A stretch of 59,170 nt of DNA, taken from the NCBI GenBank assembly GCA_017991775.1, contig JAGOPV010000003.1, positions 1-59,170 on the forward strand, in the 5' to 3' direction. Origin of the DNA: Candidatus Levyibacteriota bacterium. GTDB lineage: Bacteria; Patescibacteriota; Microgenomatia; Levybacterales; UBA12049. The translations under genes were made by a program, and so were the position numbers. Position 1 is the first letter of the stretch. Every line of letters begins with the position of its first letter. A model generated the notes under the pieces. It saw only the letters and a program-made list of their open reading frames with translations. It was not told the DNA's origin and made no database searches. This document shows positions 4,654 to 58,867 of the stretch, in pieces.

Positions 4654-4691
4654 GCGGGGCGTAGTCCTTAGGACTATTCCCCGCTTTTTTT
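4654..4691 (+). terminator. intrinsic terminator, copy A of a ~50-bp direct repeat
   Basis: GCGGGGCGTAGTCCTTAGGACTATTCCCCGC plus T7. The inner stem is GTAGTCC/GGACTA(t) and the outer stem is GCGGGG/CCCCGC. Confidence 0.8.
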
Positions 4692-4786
4692 GTGCAAAAA
4701 ATTATCACTTTGCTATAATCCTTTCCAGAACATTGAAATTTTTGAATATCCACTTTGGGTATTCAGCATTAGCAGAGGAGTCAGTC

Positions 4787-5134
4787 ATGGAAGCAGTGGT
4801 TGCCGGGAATAAGCATCTTCTGATCGTCAGTAGTGACGATTGGGTTACTATCGTAGCCATTCGTGCACTTCTCGGATTTTCGCTTGGTGATTTTGTTTTA
4901 GGAATCCAAACTAATGACCCAAGCATTGTTCGAAGAGGAGTCTACGTTGGGATTCACTGGGTCAATACTGATGAGAAAGCTTTCGCAGCAGCAGCCATAA
5001 TCCCAATTGATGGCGAAAGCGATAGCTTTTTTTGTGGAATCAAGGATTTTGCAGCAATTGCAGATTCAGATCTAGCACCCAGCGAGCTTGAATTTGCTGA
5101 GCATATTCGAGCCATCTTGCCCGCAAGGGATTAA
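4787..5134 (+). CDS. hypothetical protein (116 aa)
   Basis: The ORF-track entry 4652..5134 begins inside terminator copy A. The internal ATG at 4787 is preceded by GAGGAG 7 nt upstream and by a TGCTATAAT promoter at 4711-4719. No recognisable domain. Confidence 0.45.
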   Translation: MEAVVAGNKHLLIVSSDDWVTIVAIRALLGFSLGDFVLGIQTNDPSIVRRGVYVGIHWVNTDEKAFAAAAIIPIDGESDSFFCGIKDFAAIADSDLAPSELEFAEHIRAILPARD

Positions 5135-5145
5135 AACTTTCTTTC

Positions 5146-5183
5146 GCGGGGCGTAGTCCATAGGACTATTCCCCGCTTTTTTT
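5146..5183 (+). terminator. intrinsic terminator, copy B of the direct repeat
   Basis: GCGGGGCGTAGTCCATAGGACTATTCCCCGC plus T7. It differs from copy A by a single substitution (T>A) at the apex of the hairpin. The shared flank TTTTTTTGTGCAAAAA continues the repeat. Confidence 0.8.
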
Positions 5184-5222
5184 GTGCAAAAATAATTCGC
5201 TAGTTTGATCTATTTGATCATA

Positions 5223-25286: not shown

Positions 25287-25308
25287 ATGAGGATATTCTA
25301 CCCTAAAA

Positions 25309-25388
25309 TAGGAGATAGTTGTCAGGAATTAGGAACTAGTTAAAATTGAATTGTAACTGACTCCTAGCTCCTGATTCCTAATAACTTT
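25309..25388. repeat. heptad-phased imperfect inverted repeat (CTAG/TAG family)
   Basis: TAG/CAG trinucleotides end at 25311, 25318, 25325, 25332 and 25339. CTGA/CTAG/CTGA/CTAA/CTTT start at 25357, 25364, 25371, 25378 and 25385. The spacing is exactly 7 nt on both arms. Confidence 0.7.
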
Positions 25389-28947: not shown

Positions 28948-29505
28948 TTATTCGATCTTATCAAAGGTGAAGTAGCGAAGATCATGAATCTGAATATTGT
29001 AATATGTCTCAAGTATCCTTCCCGCAGCTTCAATATGCATTTCCCCATGCAGTTCAAGTCTCTTTGCTAGATCTAATAATTCCTCTTCTGTCTCTCCTTC
29101 TAGCTCTACATAAGTAGGCACACCAGGCCAAGTATCAATATCCACTCTCGCATTTTCAAACAAGAATGAATGGCGCTTCTTTTCCTGGACCCTGAATGCT
29201 ACCAATCCAAGCTTTTCGAGAAAGGCCACAGTCTTCTCTTCATCATTCACACTGATCTCAATTTCTGTAGTTGTGGAGGTCTCAATGAGGGCTCGCTCTT
29301 TGTAGGTCAGCAAAAGTTCATCCTTAGTCTTTCGTAAACGCACGATCTTTTTCTCTTTACGAAAGTCAGCAACCTTGCTATAGAAAATGATCTCACGATA
29401 GAGGTCTTCGCCGAGATCTTGCGCCTTTAGTTCATGCAGCCTTGAGATGAGAGCTTCTTTATCAATTTCGAGGAATTTAATTTCTGTCTCAGTGTTATCA
29501 CTCAT
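28948..29505 (-). CDS. CYTH domain protein (second, divergent copy)
   Basis: N-terminal TEIKF (ExK) motif, RLRK and later acidic motifs of triphosphate tunnel enzymes. 185 aa. Confidence 0.65.
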   Translation of the reverse strand: MSDNTETEIKFLEIDKEALISRLHELKAQDLGEDLYREIIFYSKVADFRKEKKIVRLRKTKDELLLTYKERALIETSTTTEIEISVNDEEKTVAFLEKLGLVAFRVQEKKRHSFLFENARVDIDTWPGVPTYVELEGETEEELLDLAKRLELHGEMHIEAAGRILETYYNIQIHDLRYFTFDKIE

Positions 29506-29534
29506 GTGTCGAGAAAGGCAAAGATGATACTAAG

Positions 29535-29606
29535 TGAGCCGGACAGGATTCGAACCTGTGACCAAGAGCTTAAAAGGCTCCTGCTCTACCGCTGAGCTAC
29601 CGGCCC
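29535..29606 (-). tRNA. tRNA-Lys (anticodon TTT)
   Basis: The reverse complement folds as follows. Acceptor GGGCCGG/CCGGCTC, D arm GCTC..GAGC, anticodon arm GGAGC-CTTTTAA-GCTCT, T arm ACAGG-TTCGAAT-CCTGT. Confidence 0.9.
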
Positions 29607-29644
29607 CAATAGCTAATGGCATTTGGCGAATAGCTAAGGTGTTA

Positions 29645-29674
29645 ATTATACCAAGGCTGAGGCAGCCTTGACAA
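29645..29674 (-). promoter_or_regulatory. tRNA-Lys(TTT) promoter (TTGTCA-18 nt-TATAAT with TGG extension)
   Basis: Reverse complement of 29669-29674 is TTGTCA. Reverse complement of 29645-29650 is TATAAT. Confidence 0.5.
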
Positions 29675-29824
29675 GGTAGCCATGAATACTGCCCTATAAT
29701 AATTGAATTCGGGTTGTGCCTCTGATATACTTCAAAAAAATAAGGTCTCATGCTAACAAAGCGTTATGATGTGGGATCTTTTTTGTACATTTACATTTGA
29801 AATTCAGATAAATGTGTCAAGTCG

Positions 29825-29903
29825 GTGGCAGCGTGTCCCAAATTTTTGAGATAGGCTGCTGCCACTTGGCATGCCAGACGTAAGTCTGTCATCTCGCAAG
29901 GAG
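29825..29903 (+). promoter_or_regulatory. conserved structured leader, copy 1
   Basis: P1 GTGGCAGC (29825-32) / GCTGCCAC (29858-65). Inner stem TGTCCCA/TGAGATA. P3 CAGAC-GTAA-GTCTG (29875-88). SD AAGGAG at 29898-29903. Confidence 0.6.
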
Positions 29904-29910
29904 TAACTTA

Positions 29911-30129
29911 ATGTCTCATATGCCACATGATCCTACAAGCATTCTGGCATCAGAGCCAGAGGCAGAACAGAGACTCGAGGCATGGTGTCTTGAGGAGGGC
30001 CTTAAAAATCCGACGATTAGTTACATCAGCAGGGCTGGGAACCAATGGCTCTATACCATTAACGAAGACAGACCCGACCAGGTATTTGATGTGGCTGTCG
30101 ATGTAACCGGTGAGGTGAAGCGCAGGTAG
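29911..30129 (+). CDS. small hypothetical protein, paralog family member 1 (72 aa)
   Basis: AAGGAG lies 8 nt upstream. Shares the W-[CL]-x-x-x-G-[LFI] core and downstream beta-like segments with the ORFs at 30148 and 30829. Confidence 0.5.
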   Translation: MSHMPHDPTSILASEPEAEQRLEAWCLEEGLKNPTISYISRAGNQWLYTINEDRPDQVFDVAVDVTGEVKRR

Positions 30130-30147
30130 CGCTCCAAAGGAACTGCC

Positions 30148-30396
30148 ATGACTGATCGCCGTCCAAGCGACATCCGCCCACGCAAATCACCACTCGATCC
30201 TCTCAATGAGGCTCAGGACAAAGTCATCGCATGGTGTAAAAGTGTAGGCTTTGAGCATGTAGAAATTACTGCATGCTACGGTCTGCAACAGAAGGGATGG
30301 GAATTCGATCTGATCGCAGATCAACAAGTTTCAAGTGCACTCCTCACACTCGAGAACAGGATCAAGGCTCCTGGTCTCAACATCAGAAAGGGTTAA
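30148..30396 (+). CDS. small hypothetical protein, paralog family member 2 (82 aa)
   Basis: AAAGGA upstream. The IAWCKSVGF core aligns with EAWCLEEGL and KNWLKSLGI. Confidence 0.5.
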   Translation: MTDRRPSDIRPRKSPLDPLNEAQDKVIAWCKSVGFEHVEITACYGLQQKGWEFDLIADQQVSSALLTLENRIKAPGLNIRKG

Positions 30397-30401
30397 GAGT
30401 A

Positions 30402-30551
30402 GTGGGACTTCTTCTTGTAGGCGTCGGCTTCGCAACTGGAGCGGTCGCAATCTTACGAGGGATGGATGAGTATCAAAAGCTCTTTGCCCTGTCAGGGAGT
30501 GGTCTGACCTGCGTTGCAGGACTCGCGATGTGCGTCGCCCAGCTCCTCTGA
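30402..30551 (+). CDS. possible 49-aa two-TM peptide
   Basis: The GTG at 30402 is in frame with ORF-track entry 30273..30551 and begins just after the preceding stop. VGLLLVGVGFATGAVAIL and LTCVAGLAMCVAQLL are hydrophobic helices. Confidence 0.3.
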   Translation: MGLLLVGVGFATGAVAILRGMDEYQKLFALSGSGLTCVAGLAMCVAQLL

Positions 30552-30560
30552 ATTTCAAAT

Positions 30561-30614
30561 CACTGACCCAAAAGGTCTTATCTCAGGCGGTCCCGCTTAG
30601 CGAGGCCGCCTTTT
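30561..30614 (+). terminator. conserved 3' module, copy 1 (mini-hairpin plus GC-rich terminator)
   Basis: GACC-caaaa-GGTC, then GGCGGTCCCGC-tta-GCGAGGCCGCC and TTTT. Confidence 0.7.
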
Positions 30615-30729
30615 ATTTTCTATAAAAACTGTTGTACTATCAATTTGAGTAGTATCACAATCTTTTGTCTGAAATTCTGATATACTATATACCTTAATAT
30701 TGTTCATTCACAATTTAAAGTTATAAGAG

Positions 30730-30801
30730 ATTGGCAACAACGTGTCTCACCTAATAACTGAGATAGGCTGCTGCCAATTGGCAAGCCAGACTTAGTGTCT
30801 G
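30730..30801 (+). promoter_or_regulatory. conserved structured leader, copy 2
   Basis: P1 ATTGGCA (30730-36) / TGCCAAT (30772-78). Inner stem TGTCTCA/TGAGATA. P3 CAGAC-ttagt-GTCTG (30787-30801). An 18-nt block TGAGATAGGCTGCTGCCA is identical to copy 1. Confidence 0.6.
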
Positions 30802-30828
30802 TGTAGTTCAATGCGAAGGGGTGTATCC

Positions 30829-31029
30829 ATGCGTGCTAGCAAGGGCGATACCAACAAGAATCGCAAGCAGCCAGTCAAGAACTGGCTCAAATCACTCGGC
30901 ATCACCGGAGCTCAGATCTTCTCTCTAGGAAGTCACGACTTCCGAATTCGCCTCAGCAATGGCGAAGTGCACAATGCTCACGTGATCAATGCCGACAATA
31001 TCGAGTGCAAATCCCTACAGAAGGGGTAG
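30829..31029 (+). CDS. small hypothetical protein, paralog family member 3 (66 aa)
   Basis: The ATG at 30829 is preceded by GAAGGGG. The ORF-track start at 30811 lies inside the leader. Confidence 0.5.
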   Translation: MRASKGDTNKNRKQPVKNWLKSLGITGAQIFSLGSHDFRIRLSNGEVHNAHVINADNIECKSLQKG

Positions 31030-31040
31030 CAATCATTTTT

Positions 31041-31095
31041 CATTGACCCGAAAGGTCATCACACAGGCGGCCCCGCATCGCGAGGCCGCCTTTTT
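31041..31095 (+). terminator. conserved 3' module, copy 2
   Basis: TGACC-cgaaa-GGTCA, then GGCGGCCCCGC-atc-GCGAGGCCGCC and TTTTT. Confidence 0.7.
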
Positions 31096-31172
31096 CATGC
31101 CAATTACCCCAGCATTAAAGAATATACATGTAAATATTTTTTCTTTATACTAATAGTAGTTTTACCTCATCC

Positions 31173-33224
31173 ATGAAACTTTTAAAACGTTTACTGCTTG
31201 CTTCCTCACTATTTCTTCTTTTATTTGTTTCATTCAATCATGTTGTTCGAGCACTTGTTAGCACATTGGTTACATTTAATTCGACATCAGATCTTACTGA
31301 TAAGTTTAACTCTGATGGATCTGTGCAATTTACTAACACATCAACTGGTGGTATTGGAAATACTGGTGCGATTAACGTCCCACTTTCAACGACTGATATT
31401 TGGACTACAAAGCAAGGGTACTCAGTTGCAGGTCAAGGAGATATCTATACTTTCAGCGCATATTTTAAGATACAAGCAAATGGTGGTTATGGTGGTCTGG
31501 GATTTTCAAACGCTGATACTAACACAGGTGACTCACAAGGACAGCCGCTCAAAGGAATAGGCATGTCTTTTCATGGCGGTGGAGGATCTTTTGTTAACAA
31601 TAGAACATACACCGATGTCTCGTGGCCCCCGGATCTAGTGCTTGGCAATTGGTATAAGATGATTTTTAAAGTTACTGCTAAAGGAAGCAACACGTATGAT
31701 CTCAATTTTCAAATTTGGAATTCTGATGCTGATGGCACTCTGAGCACCATGAAAACAGAGAAAAATCTCAATGGCATTGTGAATAGCGATCTTGGGTCTG
31801 CGAGCATTATTCATGGATTTTTTGCAGCAGCAGGATCTCGAATGGAAAAAATCGACAACTTCCTCATAGAACTTGAGGGAGGAGCTGGATTTGTTGATGA
31901 AAATCTTCCTGTTGTTCTTACAGCATCACCATCCGCGGTCATGGGCACTACAGCCACTTCAGGAGGAAACGCGACTGATGACCAAGGAGCAGCAATTACG
32001 GATAGAGGTGTCTGTTGGAACACATCATCCAGTCCAACCACATCGCACACATGTACGCATGATGGCACTGGAGAAGGAACATTTTCAAGCTCACTAACCG
32101 GTCTCTCTGGATTGACAGCATACTATGTAAGAGCTTTTGCGACTAATTCTCAAGGGACAAGCTATGGAAGCGAATACAGTTTCACTACTTCAGCTGCTCC
32201 AACATCAACCCCAACACCAGCAGTCACATCTGAAAATATCCAGAGTCAATCAAGCTCAACCTCTCAATCAAATGTCTGCAACGACCAAACACCAATTGGC
32301 TCACCAGAGCTTTTTCAAATCGACCCCGGAGAGACTTCGGCTATAGTTTACTTCACACCTGTGAGCAATATTCAAAGCTATTTCCTCACCTACTCATCAG
32401 ATCCAAAGGCACTTGAGCACGGAACAGAAATGTCTCTTTCATCAAATGGAGTTCAGAAAATTGAAGTTAGATCACTTTCAAGGAATACAACCTACTATTT
32501 CAAGGTTAGAGGACAAAATGGTTGCATGCCTGGCAACTGGTCAAATATATATTCTGCAAAAACGTCAAGTCAGTTGTCTATGGCCTCAATTGGCTCCCCA
32601 ATTATTCAGAAGGTTTTCAAAAATGAAATTAAAATCATCTCTTCTGAGTTGGAATCTAAAAAATCCAACGTGTGCTCTTATAAGGTGCAAGCAGGTGACT
32701 CTCTTTGGACAATTGCTCAAGCAAAATTTACAGAAGGTTCAAAGTTTGTAGAAATTAAAACACTTAACAACCTTTCAAGCGATTTATTGTCAACTGGACA
32801 AGAACTAAAGCTTCCTTGTGGAAATGACGAAGTTAGTGCAGATAAGGCCAAGAATGAATTGACTCAGGAGGGAACTCGGCTTGATGTTTTAGTAAAAGAT
32901 ACTTCAGGAGGTCCGCTTGAAGGCGTAACTGTTACTCTACATTCCAAAGTTCAGATATCCAAGACAAATAAAGAAGGGATTGCAAAATTCACAAATGTCG
33001 AGCCTGGAGACCATAAGGTAATTCTTGCATATAAGAACTATAACGGTGAGCAGAAGTTAAATGTCGATGGATCAAAAACGGAACAGGTACTTACGCTACA
33101 GGTGCAGATGAACAATGGCTTTTCATCTCCCCTGGTCATTGTAGTGGTGACTCTCTTAATTCTAACAATTCTCTATCTTCTCTTCATCATTTTAAAAAAA
33201 AGGAAGAAGAAAGAGCCTCGTTAA
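31173..33224 (+). CDS. large secreted, C-terminally anchored surface protein (lectin-like N-domain, Fn3-like repeats, LysM, CarboxypepD_reg-like)
   Basis: Signal peptide. Fn3-like segments (YYVRAFATNSQGTSYGSEYSFTT and TTYYFKVRGQNG). LysM (YKVQAGDSLWTIAQ...). LDVLVKDTSGGPLEGVTVTL. Terminal TM helix plus KKRKKK. Confidence 0.75.
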   Translation: MKLLKRLLLASSLFLLLFVSFNHVVRALVSTLVTFNSTSDLTDKFNSDGSVQFTNTSTGGIGNTGAINVPLSTTDIWTTKQGYSVAGQGDIYTFSAYFKIQANGGYGGLGFSNADTNTGDSQGQPLKGIGMSFHGGGGSFVNNRTYTDVSWPPDLVLGNWYKMIFKVTAKGSNTYDLNFQIWNSDADGTLSTMKTEKNLNGIVNSDLGSASIIHGFFAAAGSRMEKIDNFLIELEGGAGFVDENLPVVLTASPSAVMGTTATSGGNATDDQGAAITDRGVCWNTSSSPTTSHTCTHDGTGEGTFSSSLTGLSGLTAYYVRAFATNSQGTSYGSEYSFTTSAAPTSTPTPAVTSENIQSQSSSTSQSNVCNDQTPIGSPELFQIDPGETSAIVYFTPVSNIQSYFLTYSSDPKALEHGTEMSLSSNGVQKIEVRSLSRNTTYYFKVRGQNGCMPGNWSNIYSAKTSSQLSMASIGSPIIQKVFKNEIKIISSELESKKSNVCSYKVQAGDSLWTIAQAKFTEGSKFVEIKTLNNLSSDLLSTGQELKLPCGNDEVSADKAKNELTQEGTRLDVLVKDTSGGPLEGVTVTLHSKVQISKTNKEGIAKFTNVEPGDHKVILAYKNYNGEQKLNVDGSKTEQVLTLQVQMNNGFSSPLVIVVVTLLILTILYLLFIILKKRKKKEPR

Positions 33225-43430: not shown

Positions 43431-43530
43431 CAGGAACTAGAAACTAGGAACTAGAAACTAGGGGCTAGGAACTAGTTCATTCATAATAGGCTTAACAACT
43501 AACTCCCAATTCCTAACAACTAACTCCTCA
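43431..43530. repeat. heptad-phased imperfect inverted repeat (six CTAG at exact 7-nt spacing)
   Basis: The 5' arm has CTAG ending at 43440, 43447, 43454, 43461, 43468 and 43475. The 3' arm has CTAA/CCAA/CTAA/CTAA/CTCA starting at 43499, 43506, 43513, 43520 and 43527. Confidence 0.75.
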
Positions 43531-58772: not shown

Positions 58773-58792
58773 AACTAAATAATAAGTGAGAT

Positions 58793-58867
58793 GAGGAGTT
58801 AGTTACTAGGGGCTAGAAATTAGTTAAGATCTGAACTAATTCCTAGTTCCTATCTTCTAATAACTAA
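58793..58867. repeat. heptad-phased imperfect inverted repeat (TAG/CTA family)
   Basis: TAG ends at 58802, 58809, 58816 and 58823. CTAA/CTAG/CTAT/CTAA/CTAA start at 58836, 58843, 58850, 58857 and 58864. Confidence 0.7.

What the first reader, a model, noticed from the sequence alone, without database searches (positions are those of the whole stretch)
29815..31095. Tandem small-gene cassettes with a shared covarying 5' leader and a shared two-hairpin 3' module: candidate undescribed system
Two adjacent units have the same architecture. Each has a ~75-nt conserved leader, strong SD sites, one to three small ORFs, and a conserved tail.

- Unit 1 spans 29825-30614 and carries 72-aa and 82-aa ORFs plus a possible 49-aa two-TM peptide.
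- Unit 2 spans 30730-31095 and carries one 66-aa ORF.
- The tail is a mini-hairpin (TGACC-N5-GGTC) followed by a GC-rich terminator (GGCGG(T/C)CCCGC...GCGAGGCCGCC-T4/5).
- The three soluble ORFs look paralogous.
- The region is G+C-rich relative to its flanks. My hand counts were 34/60 and 33/60 nt in two lines, against 19/60 in typical membrane-gene lines.

The region lies between tRNA-Lys(TTT) and a large surface-protein gene. Duplication of regulatory and coding parts together, with stem covariation maintained, argues for a selected, regulated module of unknown function. Candidate roles include a riboregulated small-protein/peptide system, a toxin-antitoxin-like system or a host-interaction system.
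Basis: partly seen in the sequence, partly recalled or inferred. Interest (0 to 1): 0.75.

Follow-up and report, generated by a model that had tools for sequence, protein, structure and literature searches.

The report
Duplicated small-gene cassettes, shared RNA shell
Two neighbouring small-protein operons in an uncultivated bacterium keep almost the same structured leader and two-hairpin terminator while their genes have diverged almost beyond recognition; the elements match no described family but occur in only a few related lineages, and their function is unknown.

Summary
Unit 1 (29822-30614) and unit 2 (30731-31095) share a 67-73 nt leader and a two-hairpin terminator. All four ORFs are genes: they persist in three lineages with dN/dS of 0.10-0.41. 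P1 and P2 are paralogues. P3 has the same predicted fold (one helix plus four strands) but only weak sequence similarity.

Nothing matches Rfam, Pfam, NCBIfam, PHROGs, PADLOC, PDB or BFVD. An exhaustive profile search of 1.84 billion proteins gave seven hits.

"Covariation" is overstated. Between the two window copies there are only wobble-compatible single changes. A distant homologue (L011) adds four compensatory pairs. It also shows a conserved alternative hairpin that competes with the base of the long leader hairpin.

The non-coding shell is 80-100% conserved between lineages, more than synonymous sites. The unit-1 coding block of the window lineage is saturated in divergence against both other lineages.

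Best reading: an ancient tandem duplication of a small-protein operon whose cis-acting RNA shell is under strong selection. Toxin-antitoxin, integron, phage and DNA-operator readings have little or no support. Interest is moderate, because distribution is very narrow and function is unknown.

The parts
29703..29731 (+). Upstream promoter-like site TTGAAT-N17-(TG)ATATACT of unit 1. It contains TCTGATATACT, which is shared with unit 2.
   Evidence: Promoter scan. The exact 11-mer occurs only at 29721 and 30676. Conserved in L007, L003 and L010, and as TCTGGTATACT (one change) in the distant L011.
29743..29785 (+). Hairpin AGGUCUC...GGGAUCU followed by T6. It looks like a terminator or attenuator, or the end of a roughly 50-nt RNA, and lies upstream of leader 1.
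   Evidence: Folds in four lineage variants with a variable loop and a kept stem. L011 has a different hairpin plus a U-run at the same place.
29783..29813 (+). Proximal promoter-like region of unit 1: TTGTAC (-35-like, inside the shared motif TTGTACATTTACA), a 19-nt spacer, then ATAAAT. It would place +1 next to the leader hairpin.
   Evidence: The shared motif occurs only at the two units. Alignment across lineages. Hexamer assignment is by reading and is inferred.
29822..29865 (+). Leader 1 long hairpin P1: an 11-bp basal helix (segments A and B), a 1x1 internal loop, a 7-bp apical helix and a 6-nt loop.
   Evidence: Minimum-free-energy (MFE) folds, alifold, pair counts.
29866..29874 (+). 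Segment A' (UUGGCAUGC). It can pair with B (29858-29863) to form an alternative hairpin that excludes the base of P1.
   Evidence: the hairpin is kept in all five distinct versions. In L011 it is a perfect 7-bp stem with a different sequence.
29875..29888 (+). Leader 1 hairpin P2: CAGAC-GUAA-GUCUG.
   Evidence: All cells pair, and the loop varies (GUAA, GAAA, UUAGU, CUAGA, UCAUU).
29911..30129 (+). P1 gene, 72 aa. The conserved start is probably ATG 29920, giving 69 aa. It belongs to an alpha+beta small-protein family with no described relatives.
   Evidence: ORF. The first ATG is CTG in strains L003 and L005. Orthologues P0005 and P0008. dN/dS 0.27. AlphaFold2 pLDDT 83.
30148..30396 (+). P2 gene, 82 aa, paralogue of P1.
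   Evidence: BLASTP against P1, E = 0.002. Orthologues P0004, P0007 and P0009. dN/dS 0.16-0.26. Identical protein in six strain contigs.
30402..30551 (+). 49-aa peptide gene with a GTG start and two predicted transmembrane (TM) helices.
   Evidence: A same-length ORF follows or overlaps P2 in L007 (3744-3893). The same ORF begins at the cut end of L010. dN/dS 0.41. Absent from L011.
30565..30577 (+). Tail 1 mini-hairpin GACC-CAAAA-GGUC.
   Evidence: L011 has a 6-bp hairpin of different sequence (GUUGGU-CAAGU-ACCAAC) at the same position.
30586..30614 (+). Tail 1 intrinsic terminator GGCGGUCCCGC-UUA-GCGAGGCCGCC plus a T-run, with an invariant C.A mismatch.
   Evidence: The same inner stem and the same mismatch are present in L011.
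30615..30730 (+). A+T-rich spacer (22.8% G+C) carrying the unit 2 promoter-like elements: TCTGATATACT at 30676-30686, then TTGTTC at 30700-30705, 16 nt, and TATAAG at 30722-30727.
   Evidence: 94-100% identical to L007 over 30635-30809, which is more than the neighbouring genes. Five-sequence alignment, mean column identity 91%.
30731..30801 (+). Leader 2: P1 hairpin 30731-30777, segment A' 30778-30786, P2 hairpin 30787-30801.
30829..31029 (+). P3 gene, 66 aa, basic. It is a probable distant paralogue of P1 and P2.
   Evidence: Orthologues in L007 and L009/P0003 at 62-67% identity. dN/dS 0.10-0.19. AlphaFold2 pLDDT 80, helix plus four strands. hhalign P = 0.008.
31044..31095 (+). Tail 2: mini-hairpin UGACC-CGAAA-GGUCA (31044-31058) and terminator (31066-31090) plus T5.

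Best explanation
The locus holds two operons descended from one ancient tandem duplication. The duplication copied a whole expression unit: promoter region, structured 5' leader, small-protein gene(s) and a two-hairpin terminator. The genes encode a rare alpha+beta small-protein family (one helix packed on a four-stranded sheet) with no described relatives. Unit 1 adds a 49-aa two-TM peptide.

The non-coding shell is kept by purifying selection because it acts in cis on the mRNA.
- A long hairpin (P1) begins at or within a few nucleotides of the predicted transcription start. A short hairpin (P2) follows.
- The 3' strand of the P1 base (segment B) can instead pair with a downstream copy (A') of the 5' strand (A). 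That gives two mutually exclusive folds.
- I infer that a common trans-acting factor reads this leader and sets mRNA stability or translation of both operons together. The factor could be a protein, an RNA, or possibly one of the basic small proteins themselves.
- The 3' module terminates transcription and leaves a doubly hairpinned, exonuclease-resistant end.

The conserved shell has also served as homology arms. The whole unit-1 coding block of the window lineage is a deeply divergent allele set between a conserved leader and tail.

Shown: the duplication, the selection on the shell, that the ORFs are coding, the conserved base-pairing potential, and the allele divergence.
Inferred: that the structures act as RNA, the position of the transcription start, the switch, the trans factor, and any biological role of the proteins.
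For: - Repeats are real and unique to the two units.
- Leaders and tails group by unit across three lineages, so the duplication predates the lineage split and there is no recent gene conversion.
- Shell conservation exceeds neutral expectation. Leader 82-92%, tails 78-86% and spacer 94-100% identical between the window and L007. Flanking genes have dS 0.5-1.1.
- P1 plus P2: 91% of cells paired, against 28-41% when partners are slid. Four pairs have compensatory changes, reached by only 4 of 500 shuffles once L010 and L011 are included.
- The P1 apical loop varies in length (6-12 nt) and the P2 loop varies in sequence and length (4-5 nt), while the stems are kept.
- The alternative hairpin B:A' is kept in every version. 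In L011 it is rebuilt with a different sequence: 7 bp, -10 kcal/mol, z = -4.3.
- The tail keeps its two-hairpin plan in L011, with a wholly different mini-hairpin stem and the same C.A mismatch in the terminator.
- Coding: ORFs are kept through saturated divergence, dN/dS is 0.10-0.41, and confident fold models agree in topology.
- Cargo divergence: unit-1 dN is 0.65-0.76 with dS saturated or near-saturated (>=2.5 or not computable) for the window against L007 and L010. L007 against L010 gives dS about 0.5. Background dN is 0.04-0.13. Identity falls just after P2 (about 29890) and recovers at the stop codon of the peptide gene (about 30555).
Against: - There are no transcript data, so the transcription start, the RNA strand and termination are all inferred.
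- Folding energy does not favour the plus strand consistently. U1 leaders are 4-9 kcal/mol better on plus, but U2 leaders and all tails are equal or better on minus, because A.C or C.A mismatches become G-U pairs.
- Most covariation rests on one divergent sequence (L011) and one lineage (L010). With the three close lineages alone it is not significant.
- The B:A' hairpin is weak (-7 kcal/mol, z about -1 to -1.7) in all but L011. It could be a side effect of A' resembling A.
- No anti-SD pairing or terminator is linked to the switch, so its output is unknown.
- Other genes in the window also carry 5' hairpins and strong terminators (4654-5192). Part of the shell may therefore be the organism's ordinary style for well-expressed small genes.
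Confidence: 0.5

Rival explanations
1. Ordinary duplicated genes. The leader is just a promoter-proximal 5' UTR stabiliser and the tail just a strong terminator. There is no switch and no dedicated regulator. Conservation reflects general constraints on expression signals in a small genome.
For: - Another small gene in the window (4788-5134) also has a 5' UTR hairpin. It is flanked by two 98% identical terminators.
- The tRNA-Lys promoter region is also 94-100% conserved between lineages, so regulatory DNA is generally well kept here.
- No ligand-pocket-like complexity is seen in the leader.
Against: - Terminators and stabiliser hairpins normally keep structure, not sequence. Here an 18-nt leader core and the terminator stem with its C.A mismatch are invariant between ancient paralogues in the three close lineages, and the inner terminator stem and mismatch also persist in L011.
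- Segments A, B and A' changed together in L011.
Confidence: 0.2
2. DNA-level element. The P1 inverted repeat, together with the TGCCAA/TTGGCA palindrome, is an operator for a transcription factor that represses both promoters.
For: - It sits right at the predicted +1.
- Pairing potential is equally good or better on the minus strand for U2. That fits a strand-neutral DNA palindrome.
- The 3' half is invariant at the sequence level.
Against: - Half-site spacing is not fixed. The P1 apical loop is 6-12 nt and the B/A' spacer is 4-6 nt.
- Several G-U positions are kept as wobble rather than as symmetric base pairs.
- Symmetric co-change of both arms in L011 is not expected for a protein operator.
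- No regulator gene is linked to the cassettes in any lineage.
Confidence: 0.1
3. Toxin-antitoxin-like module. The 49-aa two-TM peptide is a membrane toxin. It is held in check by P1 or P2 (type V/II-like) or by an antisense RNA from the spacer (type I-like). Co-divergence of P1, P2 and the peptide reflects specificity.
For: - The peptide is short, hydrophobic and last in the operon. It overlaps P2 in L007.
- P1, P2 and the peptide diverged together as one block.
- Promoter-like sites exist on the minus strand in the spacer.
- The weak top PDB fold hit is a domain of the RnlA toxin (E = 0.16).
Against: - No hit to any toxin or antitoxin model: Pfam at E <= 10 and PADLOC.
- Unit 2 and L011 have the same shell and protein family without any peptide.
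- Minus-strand promoter hits are no more than chance (5 found against 3.2 expected).
- The peptide is under purifying selection like a normal membrane protein (dN/dS 0.41).
- Fold hits are not significant.
Confidence: 0.12
4. Mobile or recombinational gene cassettes. Leader and tail are recombination sites (integron-attC-like hairpins or similar), and the locus next to the tRNA genes is an insertion hotspot.
For: - The locus is variable. An extra cassette ("unit 0") lies upstream in L003 and L010, an extra gene in L007, the surface-protein gene is absent from L007 and L009, and the tRNA-Glu segment is inverted.
- The unit-1 cargo is swapped or hyper-diverged between conserved arms.
- G+C is anomalous.
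Against: - No integrase or transposase within +/-10 kb.
- The attC core sites are absent.
- Each cassette has its own promoter-like region.
- There are only two copies per genome, always in the same order.
- Nothing is found in 2.9 million viral contigs.
- Ordinary homologous recombination in conserved flanks is enough to explain the pattern.
Confidence: 0.08

Closest known systems
5'-terminal stem-loop mRNA stabilisers with strong intrinsic terminators (for example the E. coli ompA 5' UTR; from my own knowledge)
   Same: A hairpin at or next to the 5' end, followed by a strong SD. A GC-rich terminator sits at the 3' end. This predicts a stable, well-translated mRNA.
   Different: Here the sequence, not just the structure, is nearly invariant between ancient paralogues. 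There is a competing A:B / B:A' pairing. The 3' end has a second conserved hairpin. No decay data exist.
Orphan cis-regulatory leader motifs and riboswitch expression platforms (the Rfam 'Cis-reg' class)
   Same: A conserved structured 5' UTR shared by paralogous operons. It has mutually exclusive helices and some compensatory change.
   Different: No Rfam family matches. The fold is two simple hairpins with no multi-helix junction or obvious ligand pocket. The switch is not coupled to a terminator or to SD sequestration. Distribution is four lineages.
Type I and type V toxin-antitoxin loci (small membrane toxins such as GhoT with GhoS; from my own knowledge)
   Same: Small protein genes are followed by a gene for a peptide under 60 aa with two TM helices, translationally coupled to the gene before it.
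   Different: There is no sequence or fold match. The peptide is dispensable for the cassette type (absent in unit 2 and L011). No antisense RNA has been shown.
Polymorphic loci with conserved flanks and deeply divergent allelic blocks (for example agr or comCD specificity groups and immunity-gene arrays; from my own knowledge)
   Same: A block of adjacent small genes (P1, P2 and the peptide) is saturated in divergence between lineages whose flanks differ by 11-17%. The breakpoints fall at conserved non-coding arms.
   Different: No sensor, exporter, toxin or processing gene is linked. Both alleles have not been seen within one species.
Integron gene cassettes
   Same: Small ORFs of unknown function lie in tandem, separated by imperfect palindromes, in a variable region.
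   Different: There is no integrase and no attC core sites (RYYYAAC / GTTRRRY). The cassettes have their own promoters and terminators.

Membership tests
Any Rfam 15 family (riboswitch, leader, sRNA) | Covariance-model score at or above the family's gathering threshold | tested here: not met
   Only tRNAs pass gathering in the window. In 29600-31200 the best sub-threshold hits score 14-19 bits against thresholds of 38-70, with E = 0.6-5.5.
Intrinsic (Rho-independent) terminator | GC-rich hairpin followed directly by a U-run on the transcribed strand, downstream of a stop codon | tested here: met
   An 11-bp stem (one C.A mismatch) plus T4-5 lies 35 and 37 nt after the stop codons. It folds at about -20 kcal/mol in all copies. 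The simple scanner missed it because of the mismatch.
Riboswitch | Conserved aptamer with a multi-helix ligand-binding core supported by covariation | tested here: not met
   The consensus is two hairpins with no junction. Covariation is limited to four pairs.
Riboswitch | Expression platform in which alternative pairing controls a terminator or the SD | tested here: inconclusive
   Alternative pairing A:B vs B:A' exists. No U-run follows it, and no conserved anti-SD pairing was found.
Integron gene cassette / attC | attC inverse core sites R'' (RYYYAAC) and R' (GTTRRRY) at the ends of the palindrome | tested here: not met
   The P1 arms read TTGGCAACAAC / GCTGCTGCCAA (U2) and GGTGGCAGC / GCTGCTGCCAC (U1). 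There is no GTTRRRY.
Integron gene cassette / attC | Linked intI tyrosine recombinase; promoterless cassettes | tested here: not met
   No recombinase among called genes within +/-10 kb. Both units carry conserved promoter-like elements.
Type I toxin-antitoxin | Small hydrophobic toxin peptide (under 60 aa) | tested here: met
   49-aa ORF with two hydrophobic segments, conserved in L007 and beginning at the cut end of L010. Toxicity itself is not testable here.
Type I toxin-antitoxin | Overlapping or adjacent antisense RNA gene | tested here: inconclusive
   Minus-strand promoter-like sites at 30713..30684 and 30643..30615. The count does not exceed shuffles, and the sites overlap plus-strand elements.
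Type V toxin-antitoxin ghoST | Sequence or fold membership of the GhoT and GhoS families | tested here: not met
   No Pfam hit at E <= 10 for any of the four proteins. No GhoS among Foldseek PDB hits.
PepSY-like domain (a lead from my own recollection of the helix plus sheet pattern) | Match to Pfam PepSY models or to solved PepSY structures | tested here: not met
   No Pfam hit. Foldseek PDB best E = 0.16 and 0.48, with no PepSY among the listed hits. The profile search against PDB sequences gave nothing below E = 0.24.
Phage-derived gene (moron or anti-defence) | Relatives in phage genomes or PHROG families | tested here: not met
   PHROGs best E = 0.09. BFVD best E = 0.022, to uncharacterised proteins. 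No leader, tail, P2 or P3 relatives in IMG/VR.

The most novel reading that the evidence does not exclude
The leader is a new small RNA switch. The fold A:B against B:A', read by a protein or RNA, co-controls two operons of a fast-evolving small-protein family. The co-diverging P1/P2/peptide block of unit 1 is a specificity module, for example a self/non-self, immunity or toxin-neutralising set. Its alleles are exchanged between lineages by recombination in the conserved RNA shell.
Probability: 0.12. Interest if true: 0.7.

Novelty: new variant of a known kind. Interest (0 to 1): 0.4.

Why it matters
If the shell is a working riboregulator, this locus offers three things.
- A compact, duplicated and naturally "mutated" pair of leaders with a three-segment alternative pairing.
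- A recognisable two-hairpin 3' end.
- A protein family with a confident predicted fold and no known relatives, from an uncultivated lineage.

The sharp contrast between a near-invariant non-coding shell and a saturated coding block is a clean natural example of regulatory parts outliving their cargo. It hints at allele exchange of an interacting small-protein set.

The limits are plain. Only four lineages carry the cassette in very large collections. The organism is uncultivated, its only taxonomic label is unverified, and no function is known.

Tried and rejected
- **Known RNA families:** Rfam at gathering and at E <= 10 gave nothing.
- **Known protein families:** Pfam, PHROGs, PADLOC and NCBIfam gave nothing for the window proteins, the unit-0 protein or the L011 paralogues. 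A 13-sequence family profile against PDB sequences gave nothing. Foldseek of both models against PDB and of the P1 model against BFVD gave no hit below E = 0.02.
- **My PepSY lead:** rejected on those results.
- **Exact-pattern scans for the leader:**
  - The GTDB genome scan found one relative, L007.
  - The JGI metagenome scan found only a chance hit on a high-G+C contig, L008. It missed L009 because of a 2-nt insertion in the leader.
  - Viral contigs gave none.
- **Antisense ORF across the leader:** a peptide "SGLPIGSSLSQ" appears in U1 and U2. I rejected it as a by-product. Its starts and lengths differ, and by my reading of the L011 sequence the corresponding frame there carries a stop codon.
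- **uORF starting at ATG 29870:** rejected, because the ATG is absent from U2 and from L007 U1.
- **A' pairing with the start-codon region:** the window U1 MFE structure shows it, but it is not conserved in L007 or U2.
- **Strand assignment by folding energy:** indecisive.
- **P0010:** a 421-aa five-repeat protein on a contig with an F-box gene. I treated it as a probable false positive of the profile search.
- **Taxonomy:**
  - The MAG label "Gammaproteobacteria" could not be checked.
  - The UvrB comparison with PDB was uninformative.
  - Metagenome 3300014059 is listed as a source of a Patescibacteriota MAG in PMC11809585. That does not assign our contigs.
Full report
**What is in the window**

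Reading 29400-31500, with ORF, tRNA and repeat tools, confirms the anatomy. tRNA-Lys(UUU) lies at 29534-29606 on the minus strand. Two plus-strand units follow, and then a 683-aa LysM/fn3-like surface-protein gene at 31173-33224 (Pfam domains).

Unit 1 contains:
- a leader at 29822-29888;
- P1, 72 aa, at 29911-30129;
- P2, 82 aa, at 30148-30396;
- a 49-aa peptide with a GTG start and two hydrophobic helices, at 30402-30551;
- a tail at 30565-30614.

Unit 2 contains:
- a leader at 30731-30801;
- P3, 66 aa, at 30829-31029;
- a tail at 31044-31095.

The leader and tail repeats are each 84% identical. Their cores occur only twice in the window, far beyond chance. A covariance model finds no third copy in the window or in any related locus. 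Units 1 and 2 are 51% G+C against a window mean of 41.6%. Unit 1 is the most G+C-rich stretch of its length. The shared region is longer than reported: TCTGATATACT and TTGTWCATTYACA lie upstream of both leaders and nowhere else.

**Relatives**

The proteins are almost orphans.
- P2 found only itself among 5.8 billion clustered proteins.
- Profile searches added orthologues from two other lineages.
- An exhaustive HMMER search of 1.84 billion representatives with a P1/P2 profile gave seven hits in all.

The DNA of the relatives was recovered:
- Strain variants of the window, L001-L006, are 96-100% identical.
- L007 is a GTDB MAG labelled "uncultured Gammaproteobacteria". The label is unverified.
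- L009 and L010 are two contigs from JGI metagenome 3300014059.
- L011 is a more distant cassette.
- L012 carries a single distant protein homologue with no leader or tail.

L007 and L009+L010 have the same two-unit layout. L011 has a homologous promoter region, leader and tail around three paralogous genes. One of these is fused to a 100-aa N-terminal extension, and there is no peptide gene. No relative of the leader, tail, P2 or P3 exists in 2.9 million viral contigs. The one JGI hit to the leader pattern (L008) is a chance match.

**The ORFs are genes and form one family**

All four ORFs persist in frame and at similar length through sequence that is saturated at the DNA level. dN/dS values are:
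- 0.27 for P1 (L007 against L010);
- 0.16-0.26 for P2;
- 0.10-0.19 for P3;
- 0.41 for the peptide.

P2 is identical in six strain contigs. In strains L003 and L005 the first ATG of P1 is CTG, so ATG 29920 is probably the real start.

P1 and P2 are paralogues (BLASTP E = 0.002), and the joint profile retrieves both. P3 aligns to them in register but weakly (hhalign P = 0.008).

AlphaFold2 gives confident models despite thin alignments:
- P1: pLDDT 83, helix 15-28 plus four strands.
- P3: pLDDT 80, helix 7-23 plus four strands.

The topology is the same. With the shared shell, that makes common descent likely.

No library recognises the family:
- Pfam, PHROGs, PADLOC and NCBIfam;
- PDB sequences;
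- Foldseek against PDB and BFVD, best E = 0.16, 0.022 and 0.48.

None of the proteins shows an obvious N-terminal signal peptide by reading (no predictor was run). P2 and P3 have basic N-terminal tails.

**The leader**

All versions fold into two hairpins.
- P1 is a long hairpin: an 11-bp base, a 1x1 internal loop and a 7-bp apical helix.
- P2 is a short hairpin, CAGAC-loop-GUCUG.

Between the two window copies no pair changes on both sides. Two pairs change by wobble, and the covariation measures equal their shuffled controls.

Adding L010 and the distant L011 changes the picture:
- 91% of cells pair, against 28-41% for slid partners.
- Four P1 pairs show compensatory change.
- Only 4 of 500 shuffles reach that number.

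Loop behaviour also fits a hairpin:
- The P1 apical loop varies from 6 to 12 nt while its stem is kept.
- The P2 loop varies in sequence and between 4 and 5 nt: GUAA, GAAA, UUAGU, CUAGA, UCAUU.

It is followed by a loop and by a copy, A' (GGCAnGC), of the 5' strand A. B can therefore pair with A or with A'. This alternative hairpin exists in all five distinct versions. In L011 it is rebuilt from different nucleotides as a perfect 7-bp stem (z = -4.3). A, B and A' thus changed together.

The weaknesses are these:
- B:A' is thermodynamically weak in the close lineages.
- No terminator or SD sequestration is tied to it.
- Folding energy does not consistently favour the plus strand.

Orientation rests on context: promoter-like elements upstream, SD sites and ORFs downstream, and U-runs after the tails.

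**The tail**

The tail is a mini-hairpin followed by an 11-bp GC-rich stem and a T-run. The terminator stem, including a C.A mismatch, is invariant across paralogues in the three close lineages, and its inner part with the same mismatch recurs in L011. L011 keeps the two-hairpin plan but with a quite different mini-hairpin stem.

**Selection and history**

Leaders and tails cluster by unit, not by genome. The duplication is therefore older than the three lineages and there is no concerted evolution.

Flanking genes differ by dS 0.5-1.1 and dN 0.04-0.13. The shell is more conserved than that. Between the window and L007 the figures are:
- leader 82-92%;
- tails 78-86%;
- the A+T-rich spacer that carries the unit 2 promoter elements 94-100%.

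By contrast, the unit-1 coding block of the window lineage has dN 0.65-0.76 and saturated or near-saturated dS against both L007 and L010, which differ from each other by only dS 0.5. Identity collapses just after P2 (about 29890) and recovers at the peptide's stop codon (about 30555). Either an ancient allele set has been retained, or the block was replaced by recombination within the conserved arms. P3 is also fast-evolving (dN 0.22-0.28).

The surrounding locus is variable:
- An unrelated "unit 0" cassette (a 67-72-aa QVW-repeat protein with its own 5' hairpin and terminator) lies upstream in L003 and L010.
- L007 has an extra gene.
- The surface-protein gene is absent from L007 and L009.
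- The tRNA-Glu segment is inverted.

**Mechanism**

I commit to a cis-acting RNA shell.
- P1 sits at or next to the 5' end, followed by P2. Together they set stability or translation.
- The A:B / B:A' choice probably responds to a trans factor common to both operons.
- The tail terminates transcription and protects the 3' end.
- The arms double as recombination homology.

Only the duplication, the selection, the coding status, the pairing potential and the allele divergence are shown. The rest is inferred.

Rivals are given with their evidence in the rival-explanations section:
- ordinary expression signals;
- a DNA operator;
- a toxin-antitoxin-like module centred on the peptide;
- a mobile cassette.

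The toxin-antitoxin reading is weakened because unit 2 and L011 lack the peptide and nothing matches toxin or antitoxin models. The integron reading fails on core sites and on the integrase.

**Verdict**

This is a real module, undescribed in every library searched, with some attractive RNA features. It occurs in very few lineages of an uncultivated organism and its function is unknown. I score interest at 0.4 and rate it a new variant of a known kind: paralogous operons sharing a structured leader and terminator.

Noticed in passing
window 29703-29785: Upstream of leader 1 there is a promoter-like site (TTGAAT-N17-TGATATACT). It is followed by a hairpin (AGGUCUC...GGGAUCU) and T6. The stem is kept with a variable loop in L001, L003, L007 and L010. 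L011 has a different hairpin plus a U-run at the same place. This could be a roughly 50-nt RNA or a transcription attenuator specific to unit 1.
   Followed up: partly
window 30635-30810: The A+T-rich spacer between tail 1 and leader 2 is 94-100% identical to L007. That is more conserved than the neighbouring protein genes, and more than a single promoter seems to need. Minus-strand promoter-like hexamers overlap it.
   Followed up: partly
L003 171-374; L010 241-459: An unrelated small cassette ("unit 0") lies upstream of unit 1 in a close strain and in the JGI lineage. It encodes a 67-72-aa protein with four QVW-type repeats. It has its own 5' hairpin (CAGATC...GATCTG) and a branched terminator. 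It is absent from the window. The shared sequence begins at CCTATAATAATTGAATT (window 29693).
   Followed up: partly
window 4654-4700 and 5146-5192: Two 98% identical 47-nt terminator hairpins lie 492 nt apart. They flank a small gene (about 4788-5134, 115 aa) that has its own TATAAT, a 5' UTR hairpin and a GAGGAG SD site. This is another small gene packaged in the same style.
   Followed up: partly
L007 1839-2690 and 4458-4589: The related MAG has an extra 283-aa membrane-anchored protein gene between the CYTH gene and tRNA-Lys. It lacks the 683-aa surface-protein gene. It carries the tRNA-Glu segment inverted relative to the window. The neighbourhood is a rearrangement hotspot.
   Followed up: partly
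L011 2589-3062: In the distant cassette the first gene (157 aa, or 174 aa from an upstream ATG) fuses an N-terminal extension of about 100 aa to a P1-like domain. The domain can therefore be part of a larger protein.
   Followed up: no
L013 5001-6266 (protein P0010): A 421-aa protein made of five near-identical repeats of about 70 aa scores 45 bits against the P1/P2 profile. It lies on a contig with an F-box gene, so the contig is probably eukaryotic. It is likely a repeat-inflated false positive, but this was not resolved.
   Followed up: partly
window 25305-25341, 43441-43477, 58789-58825: Three copies of a CTAG-rich 37-nt motif (...AGGAACTAGTT) at 68-70% identity.
   Followed up: no
L007 record title; JGI sample 3300014059: The only taxonomic label available is "uncultured Gammaproteobacteria" on the MAG, and I could not verify it. 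Many window proteins lack family matches. Metagenome 3300014059, which holds L009 and L010, is cited as a source of a Patescibacteriota MAG in PMC11809585. That does not assign these contigs.
   Followed up: partly
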